DNA from: Escherichia phage ECBP2
Strand: one strand, 5' to 3'
Sequence record: NC_018859.1
DNA: 64,000 nt
Each line of letters starts with the position of its first letter. Position 1 is the stretch's first letter. The notes beneath the pieces were generated by a model. The model was not told the DNA's origin. It searched no databases and saw only the letters and a program-made list of their open reading frames with translations. The position numbers and the translations under genes are program-made. This document shows, piece by piece, positions 45,000 to 50,702 of this stretch.

Positions 45000-45552
45000 G
45001 GTCTGACAGTCGCTGACGACACAACTCTGACCAACCGTATAGAGAACCAGTCCATACCCACTCAGTGATCATACCCTGAGGTAATACGAATCGAGCTTGT
45101 TCTGGAGCAATGAACTTAATCAATTCATCGTACGACTCAAGAGCTGTTTCATATGCTCGGTTAATCAGAACTAGTGCAGAGTTTTGTGCTCCTGTGGTGA
45201 GGAGATTCCCTGCACCTGCATGGAGGTCCGAAGGTCTTTCAAAAATCTCTTTAGGGATGAAGAGTTCAACTGCTCCATCTTTATACCGCCGGGACATTTC
45301 GTTCCACGAGAATCCAACTTGGTGTTTATTGAGTTGTCTAGCAATTGCAATGGGAGCCTTACACCGAAAGGTGATTTGAGGGTGTCGAAAAGGAGTCACA
45401 TGACGTTCCCGAGCTAAGAATTTAATCAACCGCTCGTCACGTTCGTTCAGATCACCATCTCGTGTCACACCAAAGGAAACCCTTGCTGCATTGACCACAG
45501 ATTTGTCGGAACCCATGTGCTCTACCAGTGTTGCTTTTAAAAAATCAGACAT
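44902..45552 (-). CDS. thyX: FAD-dependent thymidylate synthase
   Basis: Region HQVGFSWNEMSRRY resembles the ThyX RHR...S...S.RY signature. Confidence 0.75.
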   Translation of the reverse strand: MSDFLKATLVEHMGSDKSVVNAARVSFGVTRDGDLNERDERLIKFLARERHVTPFRHPQITFRCKAPIAIARQLNKHQVGFSWNEMSRRYKDGAVELFIPKEIFERPSDLHAGAGNLLTTGAQNSALVLINRAYETALESYDELIKFIAPEQARFVLPQGMITEWVWTGSLYGWSELCRQRLSDHAQYEVRVFASTIDEELRKIYPISWDALREAH

Positions 45553-46012
45553 ACTTCAACTTCTCCTTGTTGTAAATTTCTTCTGCCTCTTCGCAAGAAG
45601 CAAAAGTTCCTAAATGTATATTCTTACCTTTGACGCCGATAATGGCTCGATATTTATCACCAGAAGCTGTCTTACGAAGATACACACCTCTAGGAAGATT
45701 TCCTATCTTGTTATCAACATCGTACTGCCTTCTGTTATGACAGTTAGTAGATGGATTCACATCTCTTAGGTTATCAATTGAGTCATTAAGTTTGTTCTGG
45801 TCAATGTGGTCAATTTCAAACTCAGGGAATTTTCCATGAACAAAGAACCAAGCAAGACGGCAAGCTCTGTAGCTTTTCCCTTCATGCTCAATGTAACGAT
45901 AACCTAGAGAAGATACATACCCAGCTTGATTTCCTTTAACCCTTCGACCTTTTGTGTTCTTCCAGAAGAAGTCTCCAGTCTTAGGGTTGTATTCCAAGTC
46001 GTCTTGTATCAT
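45545..46012 (-). CDS. HNH homing endonuclease with AP2-like DNA-binding domain
   Basis: EIDHIDQNKLNDSIDNLRDV (HNH) plus YRAIIGVKGKNIHLGTFASCEEAEEIY (AP2-like). Confidence 0.7.
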   Translation of the reverse strand: MIQDDLEYNPKTGDFFWKNTKGRRVKGNQAGYVSSLGYRYIEHEGKSYRACRLAWFFVHGKFPEFEIDHIDQNKLNDSIDNLRDVNPSTNCHNRRQYDVDNKIGNLPRGVYLRKTASGDKYRAIIGVKGKNIHLGTFASCEEAEEIYNKEKLKYV

Positions 46013-46019
46013 TTCTTAC

Positions 46020-46235
46020 TTAATAGTGAATCTTTTTATAAATCAGGTTGCTTCCACTTTCTGTTTCAATCCCTTTCTGGATTGTAACTTTAGAAGCACC
46101 GGTATTAGCAATTTTTAAAGCTCGCTTAAACCGGCGAGCCTCTTTCCGTGTGGAGTATGTTGAGAAGCTAGGGATTGTGCTATCAAAATTAAACCACTTA
46201 ACTACCCAAAAAGTAATCCAAGGTTTCTTTTCCAT
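46020..46235 (-). CDS. small protein, member of a three-copy paralog family
   Basis: Shares W...F.TR.EAR..K......KV.I......SG...I..K.HY with 48100..48315 and 48315..48527. Confidence 0.45.
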   Translation of the reverse strand: MEKKPWITFWVVKWFNFDSTIPSFSTYSTRKEARRFKRALKIANTGASKVTIQKGIETESGSNLIYKKIHY

Positions 46236-46236
46236 A

Positions 46237-46512
46237 TTAAATACCTTTCAGAGCCGTGTCTAAAAATGCACGGAGATTAGATTCAGTTTGCATACCTGAT
46301 AAACTATAATGAGCACCACTATTCTTATCAGGGACGACAAAGGCTGGGATACTGCGAACACCGTATTCAATGGCTCGCTCTCGACCATTACCTTCAGAGA
46401 TATTTACTTCTTCAACTTCTACACTGTAGTCAGCCACAACCTTCTTAAACACAGGAGCCATAGCTGCACATGGAGCACATGAATTACTATAAAACTTAAT
46501 TACTTTACTCAT
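46237..46512 (-). CDS. thioredoxin/glutaredoxin-like protein
   Basis: CAPC active-site motif in a thioredoxin-fold context; ATG at 46512 follows AAGGAA. Confidence 0.6.
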   Translation of the reverse strand: MSKVIKFYSNSCAPCAAMAPVFKKVVADYSVEVEEVNISEGNGRERAIEYGVRSIPAFVVPDKNSGAHYSLSGMQTESNLRAFLDTALKGI

Positions 46513-46702
46513 TCTATTCCTTGTTAATAAACAGGTTGATATGACGCTGGGTAGCAGGAACAACAATAAAAGATTTATACTGACCTTTTGCTAAGTCATG
46601 AGCAATCTTCTTTGTCTGACCAAGACCCATCACACAGCCACTAACGATAATGGCATGTGCTTGTAATTCTTCAGGTAGGTTTAGTTTCACTCTTTAGATT
46701 CC

Positions 46703-46888
46703 TTATAGCATACAAAGAATAATAACAAGAGGTAGTGTTATAGCAAAATGTACCAGAACAACACTACCTAGCTTGATAGCTTTAACATCCTCTTCTGCTG
46801 GGTTTTCTTTAATTGCTAAATTTCGAGCTTTATATATAACAGTACCAACTATTAACGACCACACGGCCCACACAATCAGTGAAATCAT
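46703..46888 (-). CDS. small two-TM membrane protein (paralog pair)
   Basis: 61 aa with two hydrophobic segments; similar to 46898..47119. Confidence 0.45.
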   Translation of the reverse strand: MISLIVWAVWSLIVGTVIYKARNLAIKENPAEEDVKAIKLGSVVLVHFAITLPLVIILCML

Positions 46889-46897
46889 ATCAAACCC

Positions 46898-47119
46898 TTA
46901 TGCAGTCAACAGGTGGAGAAGGAAAGGAATGACAACAGAGAAAATTACCAGAGCAATGCTGCCATGTTTAATGGGTTTAGCATCATTCGGATTTTCTTTA
47001 AGCATCTGTTTCTGAGCCAGATAAACGATACCACCAACAAGAATTGCCCACACAGACCATACGATTGCTGAAAACATATTCACATCCTTATAAAGAAGTT
47101 CGCCCCACCTCTTAAACAA
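46898..47119 (-). CDS. small two-TM membrane protein (paralog pair)
   Basis: 73 aa; IVWSVWAILVGGIVY...KENP...K.GS.ALV.F shared with the neighbour. Confidence 0.45.
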   Translation of the reverse strand: MFKRWGELLYKDVNMFSAIVWSVWAILVGGIVYLAQKQMLKENPNDAKPIKHGSIALVIFSVVIPFLLHLLTA

Positions 47120-47140
47120 AGAGACAGGGCGGAGGTTTGA

Positions 47141-47707
47141 TTAGTAAGACACGTCACCACTAGAGTGGGACATGTTGCTCTTGACGAAGTAACAGAACTT
47201 GCCAAGACCTTCATTAATTTCTTGAAGCATACTCTGGTCTACTGGATAGGTGCACAAGTCTGAATCAAACTCGTCCATCTTTTCAATGATACACATCAGA
47301 GTCATGCACATGTCGGAAAGCATACCGTCCATGTCGAGATCAGCACTACCTTCTCTGAACCAAGCACAACTAAGATAGCTACTAGCTGTTGCATCCACTT
47401 TGATACAGTGATAACGCATTCGCTCAGCTACTCGGTCTCCTGTTTCACGAGCATAGTCTTCTAATTCATCGAACATACCATGAACACCTTGGAAACCAGC
47501 TCCAGAGACGTTCCAGTGGTAATTCTTTGCTTTGATGTGTAGAAGCTCAAGGTTAGCCTGCACACCGCATAGGATGTGCTCTAGACTGTTACCGCTGATC
47601 AGTTTATTCATTCCCTCAAGACGAGAGATAGAGGAGTCAGTTGTAGAGAATGGGTTACTAGAACCCACTCGTGTTAGTTCAGGTAAGTCGAAGACATTAT
47701 TATGCAT
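47141..47707 (-). CDS. Dps/ferritin-like protein (putative)
   Basis: HWNVSGAGFQGVHGMFDELEDYARETGDRVAERM parallels the Dps ferroxidase-site motif; RBS GGAGAG. Confidence 0.5.
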   Translation of the reverse strand: MHNNVFDLPELTRVGSSNPFSTTDSSISRLEGMNKLISGNSLEHILCGVQANLELLHIKAKNYHWNVSGAGFQGVHGMFDELEDYARETGDRVAERMRYHCIKVDATASSYLSCAWFREGSADLDMDGMLSDMCMTLMCIIEKMDEFDSDLCTYPVDQSMLQEINEGLGKFCYFVKSNMSHSSGDVSY

Positions 47708-48047
47708 TAGGAGTCTCTCCTTCTAAGTTGGTTGAATTGGCTACGTTACGAGCAATGTTGTCCATGACCTGCTGGGTAATAACAATGCAATTCTGTGGGT
47801 CTACAGACTTAGAACGCCCCATTTCAGGGTCATAAACCTTAACACGTTTGGCTGTTGAGCCAGTAACTTGCAACACTTTGAGAAGATAACCTTGATTTCC
47901 AATAGACCATGCAACAACATCACGATTCTTGATATAACGACCAAGCATATCACGATGATAGAACTGCTGCATAACTTTAGCTTTGCTAATCTCTTCAGAT
48001 GGCGGGGCCACTTTACTCAAATCTAACATAACTCTCTCCTGTTTCAT
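47700..48047 (-). CDS. hypothetical protein
   Basis: 115-aa ORF. Confidence 0.45.
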   Translation of the reverse strand: MKQERVMLDLSKVAPPSEEISKAKVMQQFYHRDMLGRYIKNRDVVAWSIGNQGYLLKVLQVTGSTAKRVKVYDPEMGRSKSVDPQNCIVITQQVMDNIARNVANSTNLEGETPNA

Positions 48048-48066: not shown

Positions 48067-48075
48067 TATACATTT
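48067..48075 (-). promoter_or_regulatory. AAATGTATA promoter-like motif
   Basis: 8/9 match to TAATGTATA on the - strand just upstream of the 48047 start. Confidence 0.25.
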
Positions 48076-48099: not shown

Positions 48100-48315
48100 C
48101 TAGTAATAAACCTTGCTGGATATGAATCCAGCACTGTTCTGGATATTTTCAATCCAACGATGAATCTCCACCTTTTCAGCGATTCCTAAAGCTTTTGTAG
48201 CTTTTATAGTTTTCTTAGCAAGACGAGCCTCTTGTCTTGTGTTGAATAATTGAATACAATCACCACCAAGAGCTTTGTTAGCCCATTTAGTACGAACTGC
48301 CCATAATTTATCCAT
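48100..48315 (-). CDS. small protein, paralog family member
   Basis: 71 aa; see 46020..46235. Confidence 0.45.
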   Translation of the reverse strand: MDKLWAVRTKWANKALGGDCIQLFNTRQEARLAKKTIKATKALGIAEKVEIHRWIENIQNSAGFISSKVYY

Positions 48316-48527
48316 TAGTAATGTACCTTTCCGCTGATATAGAAACGACCTGATTTAAAGTCTTGAGCTTTGTGGATAGTGATCTTATTAATTGTGCTTT
48401 CACAACTTAACAAGAACTTCTTATGAGCGCGAGCTTCTTGACGGGTATTCCTAATACCCATTGACTCTGTACCACTGCTCCAGTGAATACGAACTACCCA
48501 ACGTCTTTTCATTGTTCCAAACTCCAT
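48315..48527 (-). CDS. small protein, paralog family member
   Basis: 70 aa; see 46020..46235. Confidence 0.45.
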   Translation of the reverse strand: MEFGTMKRRWVVRIHWSSGTESMGIRNTRQEARAHKKFLLSCESTINKITIHKAQDFKSGRFYISGKVHY

Positions 48528-48723: not shown

Positions 48724-49257
48724 TTATACACCTTTAGATGCAACTACACCTTCAGAGTTATTATAACGACCCTTCACTGCATAGGAGTGTTCCCCTGCAT
48801 GAGAGTGCTCAAACATCACCATCTGACCAACACGCATACCAGCACGAACTCGTAAGCTGTGGTTGTGAGTAACGTTATGGAATTCAAAGGTTAGCTTACT
48901 GCTATTAAACCCTGCATCAGCCCAACCAGCATGAAGGTGGTTCAAACCACAACGAGCCATTGAGGAGCGGAGTACAAACAGGCTTGAGATATTATCTGGA
49001 AGGTTAAACTCTTCCATCGAGTGAGCTAAGAAGAACTGTCCCGGAGTGATAACGATACCATCTTCAGGGATTTTTACTTCTTTCCACTTGAGGTTTTCTT
49101 TAGCATCAATGTCAACAATGCCGTCAGCCTGTTCTTCAACAAGGATAGTATCACCAATACGGATATCCACGCTAGCAGCGTTAACATATTTATGCTCCGC
49201 ATCTAAAAAGCCATTATCAATAACGCTGTGTAATTCTTGAGAACCTAAAAGACTCAT
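48724..49257 (-). CDS. dcd: dCTP deaminase / dUTPase-family protein
   Basis: SVDIRIG and RSSMARCG segments typical of the dCTP deaminase family. Confidence 0.75.
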   Translation of the reverse strand: MSLLGSQELHSVIDNGFLDAEHKYVNAASVDIRIGDTILVEEQADGIVDIDAKENLKWKEVKIPEDGIVITPGQFFLAHSMEEFNLPDNISSLFVLRSSMARCGLNHLHAGWADAGFNSSKLTFEFHNVTHNHSLRVRAGMRVGQMVMFEHSHAGEHSYAVKGRYNNSEGVVASKGV

Positions 49258-50702
49258 GAGTTTCTATTTCCTTGTACAGATGATGCCAAATTGTTAATCA
49301 TGTTGCGAGCTGTTTCACGAGATAGTGTAACACCTGCTAAGTTGTTATGAAGCTCACCAGATAGTTCACGAGCAGCAGCTCGAAGTTCTGCACCAAGTGC
49401 AGTGTCAGAGTGAGCCAGACCGTTACGACGACCGACAGGTCGAGGAGTATTGTTAGCATCATTAGCTAAAGATGGAAAATCAATACGAGCAGCTTCACGA
49501 GCCGCTATCGCTGCTACTCGATCTTCCGTAGGGGTTGGCAAATCACCAACTTCTACACGTTCTATATCACCAGCACATAGACCCTGAACAACTGAGCTTA
49601 CTGTTTCCCATGAACGATGAGAACGCTGTAAATCACCCATTGACGGAGAAGGAATAGGACGAGCAGTTCCCCCTTGAACATGCCATGTACGGTTGTGGGT
49701 GTCCGTCCCAGAAGAACGTGCACTACCAAAACTACCATTAAAAGTATTACGAGGGTCCATTGTAGAAGGGGCTGCGAATCTTGGGACTTCCTGTTGCCAA
49801 GAGTCACGTCTGTTGGTTCCCGGAGTCCAAGGTTGTGTGATTGCTTCAGCACCGATAGTGGTTAATCCACTAGACCATTCTGTCTGTAGGTTAACTTCCT
49901 CGTCCAGATAACTACGACCCCTTTCCTGAGGAATGTTTAATATAGTTTCCATCATCTTCAGGGTATAATGACGACGCTGATTCTGATATAAATTTACACC
50001 AGCCATAGGTCCAACTAAATCACTAATCAGGTGAACTTCTGGCTCACCGAAAGCTCCCATTGCAAGGTGCATATATTCGGTAGAACTGCTATAAACTGCA
50101 ACAGTTGCTTCAGGCCACTTCTTGTGAACGTACTTCATTTCACGACTAGATACCACAGGAATGTCACGAGTGTATGACATTGCAAACAAACCTTCGTTTG
50201 ACACATACAGATTACCAAGAGTCATAAACCCTTGACAGATCATAGGGAAGCGACGGCTTAAAGTATCCATATCCAAAGGTAGATTAATCATCATCTGGAT
50301 TTTAACTTGATCAATCTCAATTTCCAGAATCTCTTGGAAAGTGAAAAGCGCTTCAGCATAGGTTGTCCCGTTAACAGGCTGAATTAGTCGAGATGTAACT
50401 TGAAGCCCCTTACTCTCTGTCCAAGACAAGAAGTTGTCAAGGAACAGTGCAGCATTACTTACGTTAGCAGGGCTGTTTTCCTGACGAGTGTTCCAACGGA
50501 ATCCCCCTTGAACTAGGAAGATATCAACATCATTCGGAGTTCGATTTTGGAAGAACGTATCACGGATAGCACCACCTGCAATGACAGGATAGATACCATC
50601 AGGGACTACGTTATCTCTGATCAAATTACGAATTAGGTCAAGCCCTACACTGAGGGCTTCTCCTTCTTGAAGGTTCAATTCAGACAATGGAATCTTAATC
50701 AT
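49254..50702 (-). CDS. nucleotidyltransferase with CCA-adding/poly(A)-polymerase-type head motif and disordered C-terminal half
   Basis: GGAIRDTFFQNRTPNDVDIFL matches the GGxVRD...D.D head motif; the C-terminal ~200 aa are Ser/Arg/Gly/Thr/Ala-rich. Confidence 0.5.
   Translation of the reverse strand: MIKIPLSELNLQEGEALSVGLDLIRNLIRDNVVPDGIYPVIAGGAIRDTFFQNRTPNDVDIFLVQGGFRWNTRQENSPANVSNAALFLDNFLSWTESKGLQVTSRLIQPVNGTTYAEALFTFQEILEIEIDQVKIQMMINLPLDMDTLSRRFPMICQGFMTLGNLYVSNEGLFAMSYTRDIPVVSSREMKYVHKKWPEATVAVYSSSTEYMHLAMGAFGEPEVHLISDLVGPMAGVNLYQNQRRHYTLKMMETILNIPQERGRSYLDEEVNLQTEWSSGLTTIGAEAITQPWTPGTNRRDSWQQEVPRFAAPSTMDPRNTFNGSFGSARSSGTDTHNRTWHVQGGTARPIPSPSMGDLQRSHRSWETVSSVVQGLCAGDIERVEVGDLPTPTEDRVAAIAAREAARIDFPSLANDANNTPRPVGRRNGLAHSDTALGAELRAAARELSGELHNNLAGVTLSRETARNMINNLASSVQGNRNS

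What the first reader, a model, noticed from the sequence alone, without database searches (positions are those of the whole stretch)
47141..47707. Dps/ferritin-like protein encoded by a phage
The segment HWNVSGAGFQGVHGMFDELEDYARETGDRVAERM parallels the Dps ferroxidase-centre region (HWN..G..F...H......E...D...ER). A phage Dps could protect replicating DNA from oxidative damage or sequester iron during infection.
Basis: partly seen in the sequence, partly recalled or inferred. Interest (0 to 1): 0.45.

Follow-up and report, generated by a model that had tools for sequence, protein, structure and literature searches.

The report
Phage-encoded Dps mini-ferritin gene
This is a genuine Dps-type mini-ferritin gene, of the kind that detoxifies iron and peroxide, carried by a phiEco32-like coliphage; it has been annotated as such since 2008 and its role in infection has never been tested.

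Summary
A 188-aa ORF on the minus strand (47707..47141) contains the quoted segment. It belongs to the Dps branch of the ferritin superfamily: Pfam Ferritin is above its cut-off, the family profile matches only Dps chains in the PDB, and the AlphaFold model is a Dps four-helix bundle. All canonical ferroxidase residues (K61, H64, W65, H76, D80, D91, E95) are invariant across the phage clade, and dN/dS is about 0.05.

The window is a phiEco32-like Gordonclarkvirinae coliphage. The protein is 100% identical to Bas88_0058. Its phiEco32 orthologue gp67 was deposited in 2008 as "member of the Dps family", so this is already known at annotation level.

New detail found here:
- The protein is strongly acidic (pI 4.7) with no basic tail, so the "DNA-binding protein" label (and "integrase" in some records) is unsupported.
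- It forms a conserved pair with a small basic SH3-like protein of unknown function. The two genes open the middle transcription unit and are followed by a conserved hairpin.
- The pair sits in the dNTP-synthesis module in all prolate podophage lineages examined.

Most likely it is an iron- and peroxide-detoxifying dodecamer that acts during phage DNA replication. Two reports of the protein in virion preparations remain unresolved.

The parts
47141..47707 (-). Dps-family mini-ferritin CDS, 188 aa. It is the orthologue of phiEco32 gp67 and SU10 gp67, and 100% identical to Bas88_0058.
   Evidence: ORF. Pfam Ferritin above cut-off. phrog_3636 E 5e-53. PDB profile hits are all Dps. Dps fold. Identity to deposited phage proteins. 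dN/dS 0.05.
47423..47527 (-). Ferroxidase-centre segment, residues 61-95, on helices A and B: K61, H64, W65, H76, D80, D91, E95.
   Evidence: All seven residues are invariant in the 21-sequence clade alignment. They are in register with E. coli K48/H51/W52/H63/D67/D78/E82. Ligand identities are taken from PMC6150300 and PMC6675082.
47579..47707 (-). N-terminal extension, residues 1-43. It is clade-specific, net charge -2, has no lysine cluster, and carries a conserved S-x-x-R-[LM]-[DE]-x-M motif (R29 and M33 nearly invariant). It evolves faster than the core.
   Evidence: Alignment. Charge. Low model confidence, with a possible helix at 26-37. pN 0.28 against 0.07 for the core.
47717..47723 (-). 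Shine-Dalgarno sequence GAAGGAG, 9 nt upstream of the Dps ATG and inside the 3' end of the partner gene.
   Evidence: Read from the sequence.
47700..48029 (-). Partner gene: 109 aa from ATG 48029 (the mechanical ORF extends to 48047). It belongs to phrog_10984 (function unknown), is basic (pI 9.3), and has a predicted SH3/Tudor-like small beta-barrel. Its stop overlaps the Dps ATG by 8 nt. It is the orthologue of phiEco32 gp68.
   Evidence: phrog match and no Pfam hit. pI. Homologues start at this ATG. Model pLDDT 66, and no significant PDB fold match. It is adjacent to Dps in Lahexavirus, Privateervirus and 100-kb metagenomic relatives.
48067..48074 (-). AATGTATA core of the phage-sigma promoter motif (AAATGTATATA in context), in the roughly 70-nt gap upstream of the partner gene. 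This marks the first middle promoter.
   Evidence: Motif positions. Sequence conserved in SU7 and phiEco32. The SU7 record annotates a promoter here. The SU10 paper places a sigma70 promoter plus the tAATGTATAtA motif upstream of CDS68, the first middle gene.
47101..47131 (-). 13-bp GC-rich hairpin starting 10 nt after the Dps stop codon and followed by a moderately T-rich tail. It could be a terminator, an attenuator or an RNA-stabilising element.
   Evidence: Terminator-like scan. Fold energy -20.3 kcal/mol, z -2.4. The stem is invariant and the loop differs in phiEco32, while adjacent synonymous sites are near saturation.

Best explanation
The gene encodes a Dps-type mini-ferritin with a canonical ferroxidase centre formed between subunits.

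Shown here: Dps sequence membership, the Dps fold, invariant ferroxidase residues, strong purifying selection, and a position as the second gene of the middle transcription unit.

Inferred by analogy with characterised Dps proteins:
- It assembles into a hollow dodecamer.
- It binds Fe2+ at the dimer-interface sites, using H64/H76/D80 from one subunit and D91/E95 from the neighbour.
- It oxidises the iron, preferentially with H2O2, and stores Fe3+ as a mineral core.

Inferred role in infection: it lowers free Fe2+ and H2O2 in the infected cell while phage dNTP synthesis and DNA replication run. That limits Fenton damage to replicating phage DNA and to the redox-sensitive enzymes encoded beside it (ThyX flavoenzyme, thioredoxin, and anaerobic RNR in relatives).

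The protein is strongly acidic and lacks a basic tail, so it probably acts chemically, like the non-DNA-binding Dps proteins (Listeria Dps, B. anthracis Dlp-1/2), rather than by coating DNA. Any DNA contact would need another factor. The conserved, translationally coupled basic partner is a speculative candidate for that.
For: - Family and fold: Pfam Ferritin 31.4 bits against a cut-off of 24.5. The clade profile matches only Dps chains in the PDB, over the full length, best Dlp-2 at E 6.6e-19. The AF2 core has pLDDT above 90 with helices A, B, BC, C and D. The top 50 Foldseek PDB hits are all Dps.
- Catalytic residues: K61, H64, W65, H76, D80, D91 and E95 are invariant in 21 clade members down to 40% identity and in register with E. 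coli K48/H51/W52/H63/D67/D78/E82. The roles of those residues are described in PMC6150300 and PMC6675082.
- Selection and expression: dN/dS is 0.05. The SU10 orthologue was detected by MS at full-length mass, with the most peptides among the middle-gene products shown in the retrieved part of the table.
- Timing: the phage-sigma/sigma70 middle promoter lies upstream of the partner-Dps pair.
- Context: the gene lies among dCTP deaminase, ThyX, thioredoxin, PhoH, NrdD/NrdG and DNA polymerase in Kuravirus, Suseptimavirus, Moazamivirus, Privateervirus, Lahexavirus and 100-kb metagenomic relatives.
- Charge: pI 4.71, net -14; N-tail -2, C-tail -1. E. coli Dps binds DNA through its lysine-rich N-terminal tails.
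Against: - No biochemical or genetic data exist for any phage Dps. The literature found is annotation-level only.
- Dodecamer assembly, iron oxidation and oxidant preference were not testable here.
- NCBIfam Dps equivalog models score far below their cut-offs (34.8 against 114), so the protein is not an equivalog of any cellular Dps those models were built for.
- Pfam aligns only helices A and B (residues 56-99). The C-terminal half is diverged.
- A low-confidence N-terminal helix (26-37) exists. Per the title of a 2005 paper listed in a reference list, an N-terminal helix is required for DNA binding in Lactococcus Dps, so DNA binding is not excluded.
- Detection of the protein in doubly CsCl-purified Privateer virions is not explained by a purely cytoplasmic role.
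Confidence: 0.6

Rival explanations
1. Iron buffer or donor for nucleotide metabolism. The Dps cage mainly stores and releases iron for iron-dependent dNTP-synthesis enzymes (the host class Ia RNR di-iron centre, or phage NrdG/NrdD Fe-S and glycyl-radical systems in relatives) rather than protecting DNA.
For: The gene is embedded in the dNTP-synthesis module in every lineage examined. It directly abuts ThyX in SE131, an ATP-cone/NrdD fragment in P59, and lies between NrdG and an ATP-cone protein in LAh_9. NrdD is nearby in metagenomic relatives. Thioredoxin is co-conserved in all C3 phages.
Against: No RNR gene was seen near the Dps gene in the window or in the phiEco32 and Bas88 records, yet these phages keep the gene. 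As far as I know, Dps proteins are not established iron donors. Gene context fits protection of oxygen- or peroxide-sensitive enzymes equally well.
Confidence: 0.15
2. Virion-associated Dps. The protein is packaged in, or bound to, the prolate capsid. There it could accompany or protect the packed genome, or be delivered into the next host.
For: It was detected by whole-particle LC-MS/MS in Privateer virions purified by a CsCl step gradient and then equilibrium centrifugation; that paper verified ten virion-associated proteins and separately reports Dps detection. It was also detected in SU10 preparations. It is a core gene of the prolate C3 podophages. The viral structure library contains Dps-like folds inside proteins named 'prohead protease'.
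Against: It is a middle gene in the replication module, not a late gene. The SU10 preparation also contained DNA polymerase, thioredoxin, PhoH, the sigma factor, gp68 and early enzymes, so it was not pure. A term search of the SU10 cryo-EM paper found no mention of Dps, gp67 or ferritin. Iron-loaded cages are dense and may co-band with phage in CsCl (my inference). No capsid-targeting signal was identified.
Confidence: 0.1
3. DNA-binding, nucleoid-compacting protein, as the deposited label 'DNA-binding protein' implies. On this reading it coats or condenses phage or host DNA as E. coli Dps does.
For: The family name and database labels. A possible N-terminal helix with R29 and K35. A basic partner protein encoded in an overlapping reading frame could bridge to DNA.
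Against: pI 4.7 and net charge -14. Both tails are acidic or neutral with no lysine cluster, and clade members have a net charge of -3 to -15. E. coli Dps needs its lysine-rich tails for DNA binding. The closest solved relatives by profile are Dlp-2, S. aureus Dps and MsDps2; from my own knowledge, Dlp-1/2 and Listeria Dps do not bind DNA.
Confidence: 0.1
4. A decayed or non-catalytic remnant of a captured host gene, or the 'integrase' that some records call it.
For: Pfam aligns only 44 residues. NCBIfam equivalogs fall below their cut-offs. Several GenBank records carry the label 'integrase'.
Against: The match to the phage family and to solved Dps chains covers the full length. The ligands are invariant. 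dN/dS is 0.05. The protein is expressed. No integrase domain was found. It is only about 20% identical to E. coli Dps in the structure-based (Foldseek) alignment, so it is not a recent host capture.
Confidence: 0.02

Closest known systems
phiEco32 gp67 (ABY52868) and SU10 gp67, the Kuravirus Dps-family protein
   Same: These are orthologues at 81-82% identity, with the same length, N-terminal extension, gene neighbours and position after gp68. The protein is 100% identical to Bas88_0058 and to the TH43 gene.
   Different: There is nothing substantive. The window's copy differs mainly in the fast-evolving N-terminal 43 residues.
Bacillus anthracis Dlp-2 (1jig) and Dlp-1, S. aureus Dps (2d5k), Listeria innocua Dps: tail-less mini-ferritins
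   Same: These are the best sequence-profile matches (E 6.6e-19) and close fold matches (TM 0.91, rmsd 1.6 A). They share the canonical ferroxidase residues and have no basic DNA-binding tail.
   Different: Identity is only about 22-24%. The phage protein has a 43-residue acidic N-terminal extension with its own conserved motif, seven cysteines, and a diverged C-terminal half.
Mycobacterium smegmatis Dps2 (2z90, 4m35)
   Same: It is the best single-sequence match (E 1e-9) and the top Foldseek hit. Helices A and B are very similar (HWNV.G..F..LH...DEL.D.AR...D..AERMR).
   Different: From my own knowledge, MsDps2 is associated with the nucleoid. The phage protein has no comparable basic region.
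Escherichia coli Dps, the host's own protein
   Same: It has the same fold and the same ferroxidase residues in register. The C-terminal helix ends similarly (KFLWFIESN against KFCYFVKSN, read directly from the sequences).
   Different: Identity is about 20%. NCBIfam's Dps equivalog scores 34.8 against a cut-off of 114. The host protein has a lysine-rich N-tail (+3) that binds DNA; the phage tail is acidic. This is not a recent host capture.
Dps genes in other phages: Lactobacillus myophages, gut 'Gratiaviridae', Bacillus phage G gp346, cyanophage S-SRM01
   Same: They share the fold and the proposed antioxidant or iron-sequestering role during infection.
   Different: They are separate, distant lineages at 15-30% identity. 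They were not checked for the partner gene.

Membership tests
[quoted passage not shown] | Significant sequence match to ferritin-like/Dps profiles | tested here: met
   Pfam PF00210 31.4 bits against a cut-off of 24.5. The clade profile against PDB sequences hits 57 Dps sequences, best E 6.6e-19, over the full length. An exhaustive search finds 5,179 representatives at E <= 1e-3.
[quoted passage not shown] | Four-helix bundle with a short BC helix in the long crossover loop and no fifth E helix | tested here: met
   AF2 helices at 42-66, 72-99, 108-113 (BC), 126-146 and 155-178, core pLDDT above 90. The top 50 Foldseek PDB hits are all Dps, TM up to 0.91.
[quoted passage not shown] | [quoted passage not shown] | tested here: met
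   H64, H76, D80, D91 and E95 (plus W65 and K61) are invariant in the clade and in register with E. coli H51/H63/D67/D78/E82. The definition comes from PMC6675082 and PMC6150300. The geometry across the dimer interface was not modelled.
[quoted passage not shown] | Assembly into a hollow dodecamer with 23 symmetry | not testable with these tools
   Only monomer prediction was available. It needs multimer modelling, SEC-MALS or cryo-EM.
[quoted passage not shown] | Fe2+ oxidation (H2O2 preferred) and formation of an iron core | not testable with these tools
   This is a biochemical assay. No published data on any phage Dps were found.
Equivalog of a specific cellular Dps (NCBIfam NF006975 Dps, NF041388 and NF052461 DpsA) | Score above the curated equivalog cut-off | tested here: not met
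   34.8 against 114, 28 against 170, and 17.8 against 300 bits. The protein belongs to a separate phage clade with only 7 representatives at E <= 1e-30.
DNA-binding Dps of the E. coli type (the 'DNA-binding protein' label) | Flexible basic (Lys/Arg-rich) N- or C-terminal tail, or a positively charged surface | tested here: not met
   N-tail net -2, C-tail net -1, whole protein pI 4.71 and net -14. The tail requirement in E. coli is described in PMC6150300. This counts against the label, not against Dps membership.
Classical 24-mer ferritin or bacterioferritin | Intra-subunit di-iron site and a fifth C-terminal helix; closest relatives would be ferritin or Bfr | tested here: not met
   Every significant PDB sequence and fold match is a Dps, apart from engineered Dps-scaffold chimeras. 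The model has a BC helix and no E helix.
Integrase (the label in IME267, E20-1, ES17 and other records) | A tyrosine or serine recombinase domain | tested here: not met
   Ferritin is the only Pfam family matched, and the fold is Dps. The label is a propagated misannotation.

The most novel reading that the evidence does not exclude
The Dps does not act alone. Together with the overlapping, translationally coupled basic SH3-like protein (phrog_10984), it forms a conserved two-gene module that opens the middle operon of prolate (C3) podophages. The partner would tether the acidic iron cage to DNA or to the procapsid. That would explain why Dps turns up in purified virions of two distantly related phages, and would make it a packaged or genome-associated protectant of the tightly packed genome in an extremely elongated head. 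No such role has been described for any ferritin-like protein in a tailed phage.
Probability: 0.1. Interest if true: 0.6.

Novelty: already known. Interest (0 to 1): 0.2.

Why it matters
As an annotation this adds nothing. The orthologue has been called a Dps-family member since 2008, and an identical protein is already deposited.

The open questions are functional. Why do all the prolate-podophage lineages examined here keep a catalytically intact mini-ferritin, under strong purifying selection, at the head of the middle operon? Does it control iron and peroxide chemistry during replication? What does its conserved partner do?

Because BASEL phage Bas88 carries the identical gene and grows on an engineered E. 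coli K-12, these questions can be tested directly.

There is also a practical point. The current database labels, "DNA-binding protein" and especially "integrase", are misleading. "Integrase" could wrongly flag these strictly lytic therapeutic candidates as temperate.

Tried and rejected
- NCBIfam Dps equivalogs all scored far below their cut-offs, so the protein cannot be called an equivalog of a cellular Dps.
- The generic sigma70 promoter scan showed no enrichment: 9 sites found against 14.9 expected. The promoter assignment rests instead on the phage-sigma motif, its conservation and published mapping.
It was repeated with database hits only.
- The partner's fold search gave only generic SH3/Tudor/PWWP/integrase-CTD barrels, with best E 5e-3 and TM about 0.4. 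A profile search of PDB sequences gave nothing significant. No function can be assigned.
- Long Dps-domain proteins from the exhaustive search were scanned for capsid-maturation domains, to test the idea that Dps can be capsid cargo. Only Ferritin, DUF6321 and unknown PHROGs were found, which is uninformative.
- P0063 (1,156 aa, 20 matched stretches) is a 57-residue tandem-repeat translation and not a Dps.
- The most distant metagenomic relative (L009, Dps 43% identical) has no partner gene within the part of its 11-kb contig that was fetched, so the pair is not universal.
- Hetero-oligomerisation with host Dps as a dominant-negative was considered and set aside. About 20% identity makes co-assembly unlikely, and it was not testable here.

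Full report
**1. The observation**

The coordinates 47141-47707 delimit a 188-aa ORF on the minus strand, with ATG at 47707 and the stop codon at 47143-47141. The plus-strand reading is full of stops. The quoted segment is residues 64-97.

The start codon is credible. A GAAGGAG Shine-Dalgarno sequence lies 9 nt upstream, and the ATG overlaps the stop of the upstream gene by 8 nt. The alternative Met33 has poor spacing to any SD-like sequence. The SU10 orthologue was observed at 21.2 kDa, which matches the full-length mass of 21.1 kDa computed here.

The underlying claim still holds once the register is fixed by profile alignment.

**2. What it is**

Sequence evidence:
- Pfam Ferritin (PF00210) scores 31.4 bits against a gathering score of 24.5, but aligns only residues 56-99.
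- The phage family phrog_3636, labelled "DNA binding protein", matches end to end at E 5e-53.
- A single-sequence search of PDB sequences gives M. smegmatis Dps2 at E 1e-9.
- A profile built from 21 clade members matches only Dps chains, over the full length. The best is B. anthracis Dlp-2 at E 6.6e-19. The only other entries are engineered Dps-scaffold chimeras.
- NCBIfam's Dps equivalogs are hit far below their cut-offs. The protein is therefore a Dps-family member but not an equivalog of a cellular Dps those models were built for.

Fold evidence:
- The AlphaFold2 model has mean pLDDT 81.6, above 90 for residues 42-178. It shows helices A (42-66), B (72-99), a short BC helix (108-113), C (126-146) and D (155-178).
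- All 50 top Foldseek PDB matches are Dps proteins. Target-normalised TM scores are 0.8-0.9 and rmsd is 1.2-2.2 A for the best.

**3. Catalytic residues**

[quoted passage not shown] In E. coli these are H51/H63/E82 (site A) and K48/D67/D78 (site B) (PMC6675082 and PMC6150300).

Profile alignment puts window K61, H64, W65, H76, D80, D91 and E95 on E. coli K48, H51, W52, H63, D67, D78 and E82. All seven positions are invariant in the clade down to 40% identity.

The gene is under strong purifying selection. dN/dS is 0.055 against SU7 and 0.048 against phiEco32, although synonymous sites are near saturation in the phiEco32 comparison. This is a maintained gene that looks catalytically competent.

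**4. Whose gene it is, and what was already known**

The region is 95% identical to Gordonclarkvirinae coliphages such as Bas87, IME267 and SU7. The protein is 100% identical to Bas88_0058 and to the TH43 gene, and 82% identical to phiEco32 gp67.

phiEco32 gp67 was deposited in 2008 as "DNA-binding protein; member of the Dps family". The 2014 SU10 paper lists CDS67 ("contains a DPS domain") among the few genes shared by all five C3 phages sequenced at that time, together with thioredoxin and CDS68. It also detected the protein by MS, with 6 peptides and 35.8% coverage. The Privateer paper likewise notes a Dps-family protein whose function is "not verified".

Other phage Dps genes have been noted in Lactobacillus myophages and gut "Gratiaviridae". 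An antioxidant or iron-sequestering role was proposed for them, and no experiments were reported. The finding is therefore correct but already known at annotation level.

Other records label the gene "integrase", "ferric iron binding protein" or "hypothetical". The "integrase" label has no support.

**5. How far the clade reaches**

An exhaustive profile search of 1.84 billion representatives finds 5,179 Dps-family proteins at E <= 1e-3. Only 7 reach E <= 1e-30. The clade is small and tight, and it grades into the general family.

In the phage collection the gene is found in 134 records: 91 Escherichia and 3 Shigella phages at 80-100% identity, then 30-42% relatives in Salmonella (Moazamivirus), Cronobacter, Proteus (Privateervirus) and Aeromonas (Lahexavirus) phages. 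These are prolate C3 podophage lineages. Distant hits occur in Streptomyces and Synechococcus phages.

Identity to E. coli Dps is only about 20% in the Foldseek alignment, so this is not a recent capture from the host.

**6. Anatomy beyond the core**

- *Charge.* The protein has pI 4.71 and net charge -14. The 43-residue N-terminal extension is net -2 and the C-terminal tail is net -1, and neither has a lysine cluster. Clade members range from -3 to -15. E. coli Dps, whose surface is also negative, binds DNA through lysine-rich N-terminal tails. The "DNA-binding" label is therefore inherited from the family name and not supported by the sequence. It is not excluded either, because a low-confidence N-terminal helix (26-37) carries a conserved S-x-x-R-[LM]-[DE]-x-M motif. 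An N-terminal helix is required for DNA binding in Lactococcus Dps, according to the title of Stillman et al. 2005, seen only in a reference list.
- *Rate of change.* The extension evolves about four times faster than the core at nonsynonymous sites, with pN 0.28 against 0.07.
- *Cysteines.* The protein has seven cysteines, none of them invariant.

**7. A conserved partner and the transcription unit**

The upstream gene is 109 aa from ATG 48029. It belongs to phrog_10984 (function unknown), has no Pfam hit and is basic, with pI 9.3. Its stop overlaps the Dps start.

Homologues sit immediately upstream of Dps, abutting or overlapping its start:
- Lahexavirus LAh_9: 36% identity, E 5e-18.
- Privateervirus P59: 38% identity, E 3e-16.
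- Two 100-kb metagenomic phage contigs: partner 70% identical, Dps 50% identical.

In Moazamivirus SE131 the partner lies 1.3 kb upstream, after thioredoxin, and Dps follows ThyX directly. It was not found in the fetched part of the most distant metagenomic contig.

The partner's model has moderate confidence (pLDDT 66). It shows an SH3/Tudor-like five-stranded barrel with no significant structural match, so its function is open.

Upstream of the partner, a roughly 70-nt gap carries AAATGTATATA at 48067-48074 on the minus strand. It is conserved in SU7 and phiEco32, and the SU7 record annotates a promoter there. The SU10 paper places a good sigma70 promoter plus the phage-sigma motif tAATGTATAtA upstream of CDS68, and defines CDS68 as the first middle gene. 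The partner and Dps are therefore the two promoter-proximal middle genes.

Ten nucleotides after the Dps stop lies a 13-bp hairpin with energy -20.3 kcal/mol and z -2.4. Its stem is invariant between the window and phiEco32 while its loop differs. This contrasts with near-saturated synonymous change next door. It looks like a maintained terminator, attenuator or RNA-stabilising element.

**8. Context**

In every lineage examined the gene lies inside the dNTP-synthesis and replication block. Its neighbours are dCTP deaminase, ThyX, thioredoxin, PhoH, DnaB or primase-helicase, DNA polymerase and, in relatives, NrdD, NrdG and ATP-cone proteins. Within the window, late structural genes occupy the plus strand (about 1-31 kb) and early and middle genes occupy the minus strand.

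**9. Mechanism**

*Best-supported reading (confidence 0.6).* The protein is a dodecameric mini-ferritin that oxidises Fe2+ at dimer-interface ferroxidase centres, using H2O2, and stores Fe3+. That would suppress Fenton chemistry during the replication phase. The shown steps are family, fold, ligands, selection, expression and timing. The inferred steps are oligomeric state, activity and physiological role.

*Rivals.*
- An iron buffer or donor for nucleotide-metabolism enzymes. Gene context supports this, but no RNR gene was seen near the Dps gene in the Kuravirus-type records examined.
- A virion-associated protein. It was detected in Privateer virions purified by a CsCl step gradient and equilibrium centrifugation and in SU10 preparations. 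However, the SU10 sample also held DNA polymerase, thioredoxin, PhoH, the sigma factor, gp68 and early enzymes. A term search of the SU10 cryo-EM paper found no mention of Dps. Dense, iron-loaded cages might co-band with phage (my inference).
- A true DNA-coating protein, which the charge data argue against.
- A decayed remnant or an integrase, which is refuted.

**10. Verdict**

The feature is already known at annotation level. Interest is low (0.2).

The residual value lies in three places: the conserved partner-Dps gene pair at the head of the middle operon, the unexplained virion detections, and the correction of misleading database labels.

Noticed in passing
window 45545-46012 (-): An HNH homing-endonuclease gene (phrog_99 E 5.6e-52; Pfam HNH_3) sits immediately upstream of the ThyX gene (minus strand), and its stop overlaps the ThyX start by 8 nt. 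DNA similarity to Bas87, Bas88 and IME267 begins only at about 46013-46020. Bas88 has no gene of this size there, so this looks like a strain-specific mobile insertion.
   Followed up: partly
window 46020-46235, 48100-48315, 48315-48527 (all -): Three paralogous proteins of about 70 aa (phrog_4939, function unknown) are scattered around the Dps gene. They share a T-R-[QK]-E-A-R motif and a C-terminal K-[VI]-[HY]-Y.
   Followed up: no
window 46703-46888 and 46898-47119 (-): Two tandem paralogues of a small, hydrophobic, apparently membrane-spanning protein (phrog_9296, function unknown) lie directly downstream of the Dps hairpin. phiEco32 has one such gene at the corresponding position.
   Followed up: no
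GenBank records IME267, E20-1, ES17, PAS59, MLP3 and others: Many deposited genomes label the Dps orthologue 'integrase'. There is no recombinase domain and the fold is Dps. The label is a propagated misannotation that could wrongly suggest these phages are temperate.
   Followed up: yes
BFVD hits A0A6J7XDU5, A0A6J7WPK9, A0A6J7WIS1; P0082, P0084: Dps-like folds occur inside much longer proteins of uncultured phages. Some are named 'prohead protease' (333-763 aa). One has two tandem Ferritin domains (777 aa), and one is fused to DUF6321 (406 aa). This hints that some phages may target ferritin-like domains to capsids, as encapsulins do. It was not resolved.
   Followed up: partly
window 48724-49257 and 49254-50702 (-): A dCTP deaminase gene is followed by an overlapping 482-aa ORF with no Pfam hit, annotated 'nucleotidyltransferase' in the BASEL records. 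The BASEL paper suggests this pair may underlie a DNA modification that explains the resistance of these phages to restriction.
   Followed up: no
window 47141-47707 (-) and 46237-46566 (-): The Dps has seven cysteines; E. coli Dps has none in the sequence recalled from memory. A thioredoxin gene is co-conserved with it in all C3 phages. None of the cysteines is invariant. A possible redox link was not explored.
   Followed up: no
P0063: A 1,156-aa database 'protein' made of about 20 copies of a 57-residue repeat scores 107 bits against the Dps profile because weak hits add up. It is an artefact and not a Dps.
   Followed up: yes
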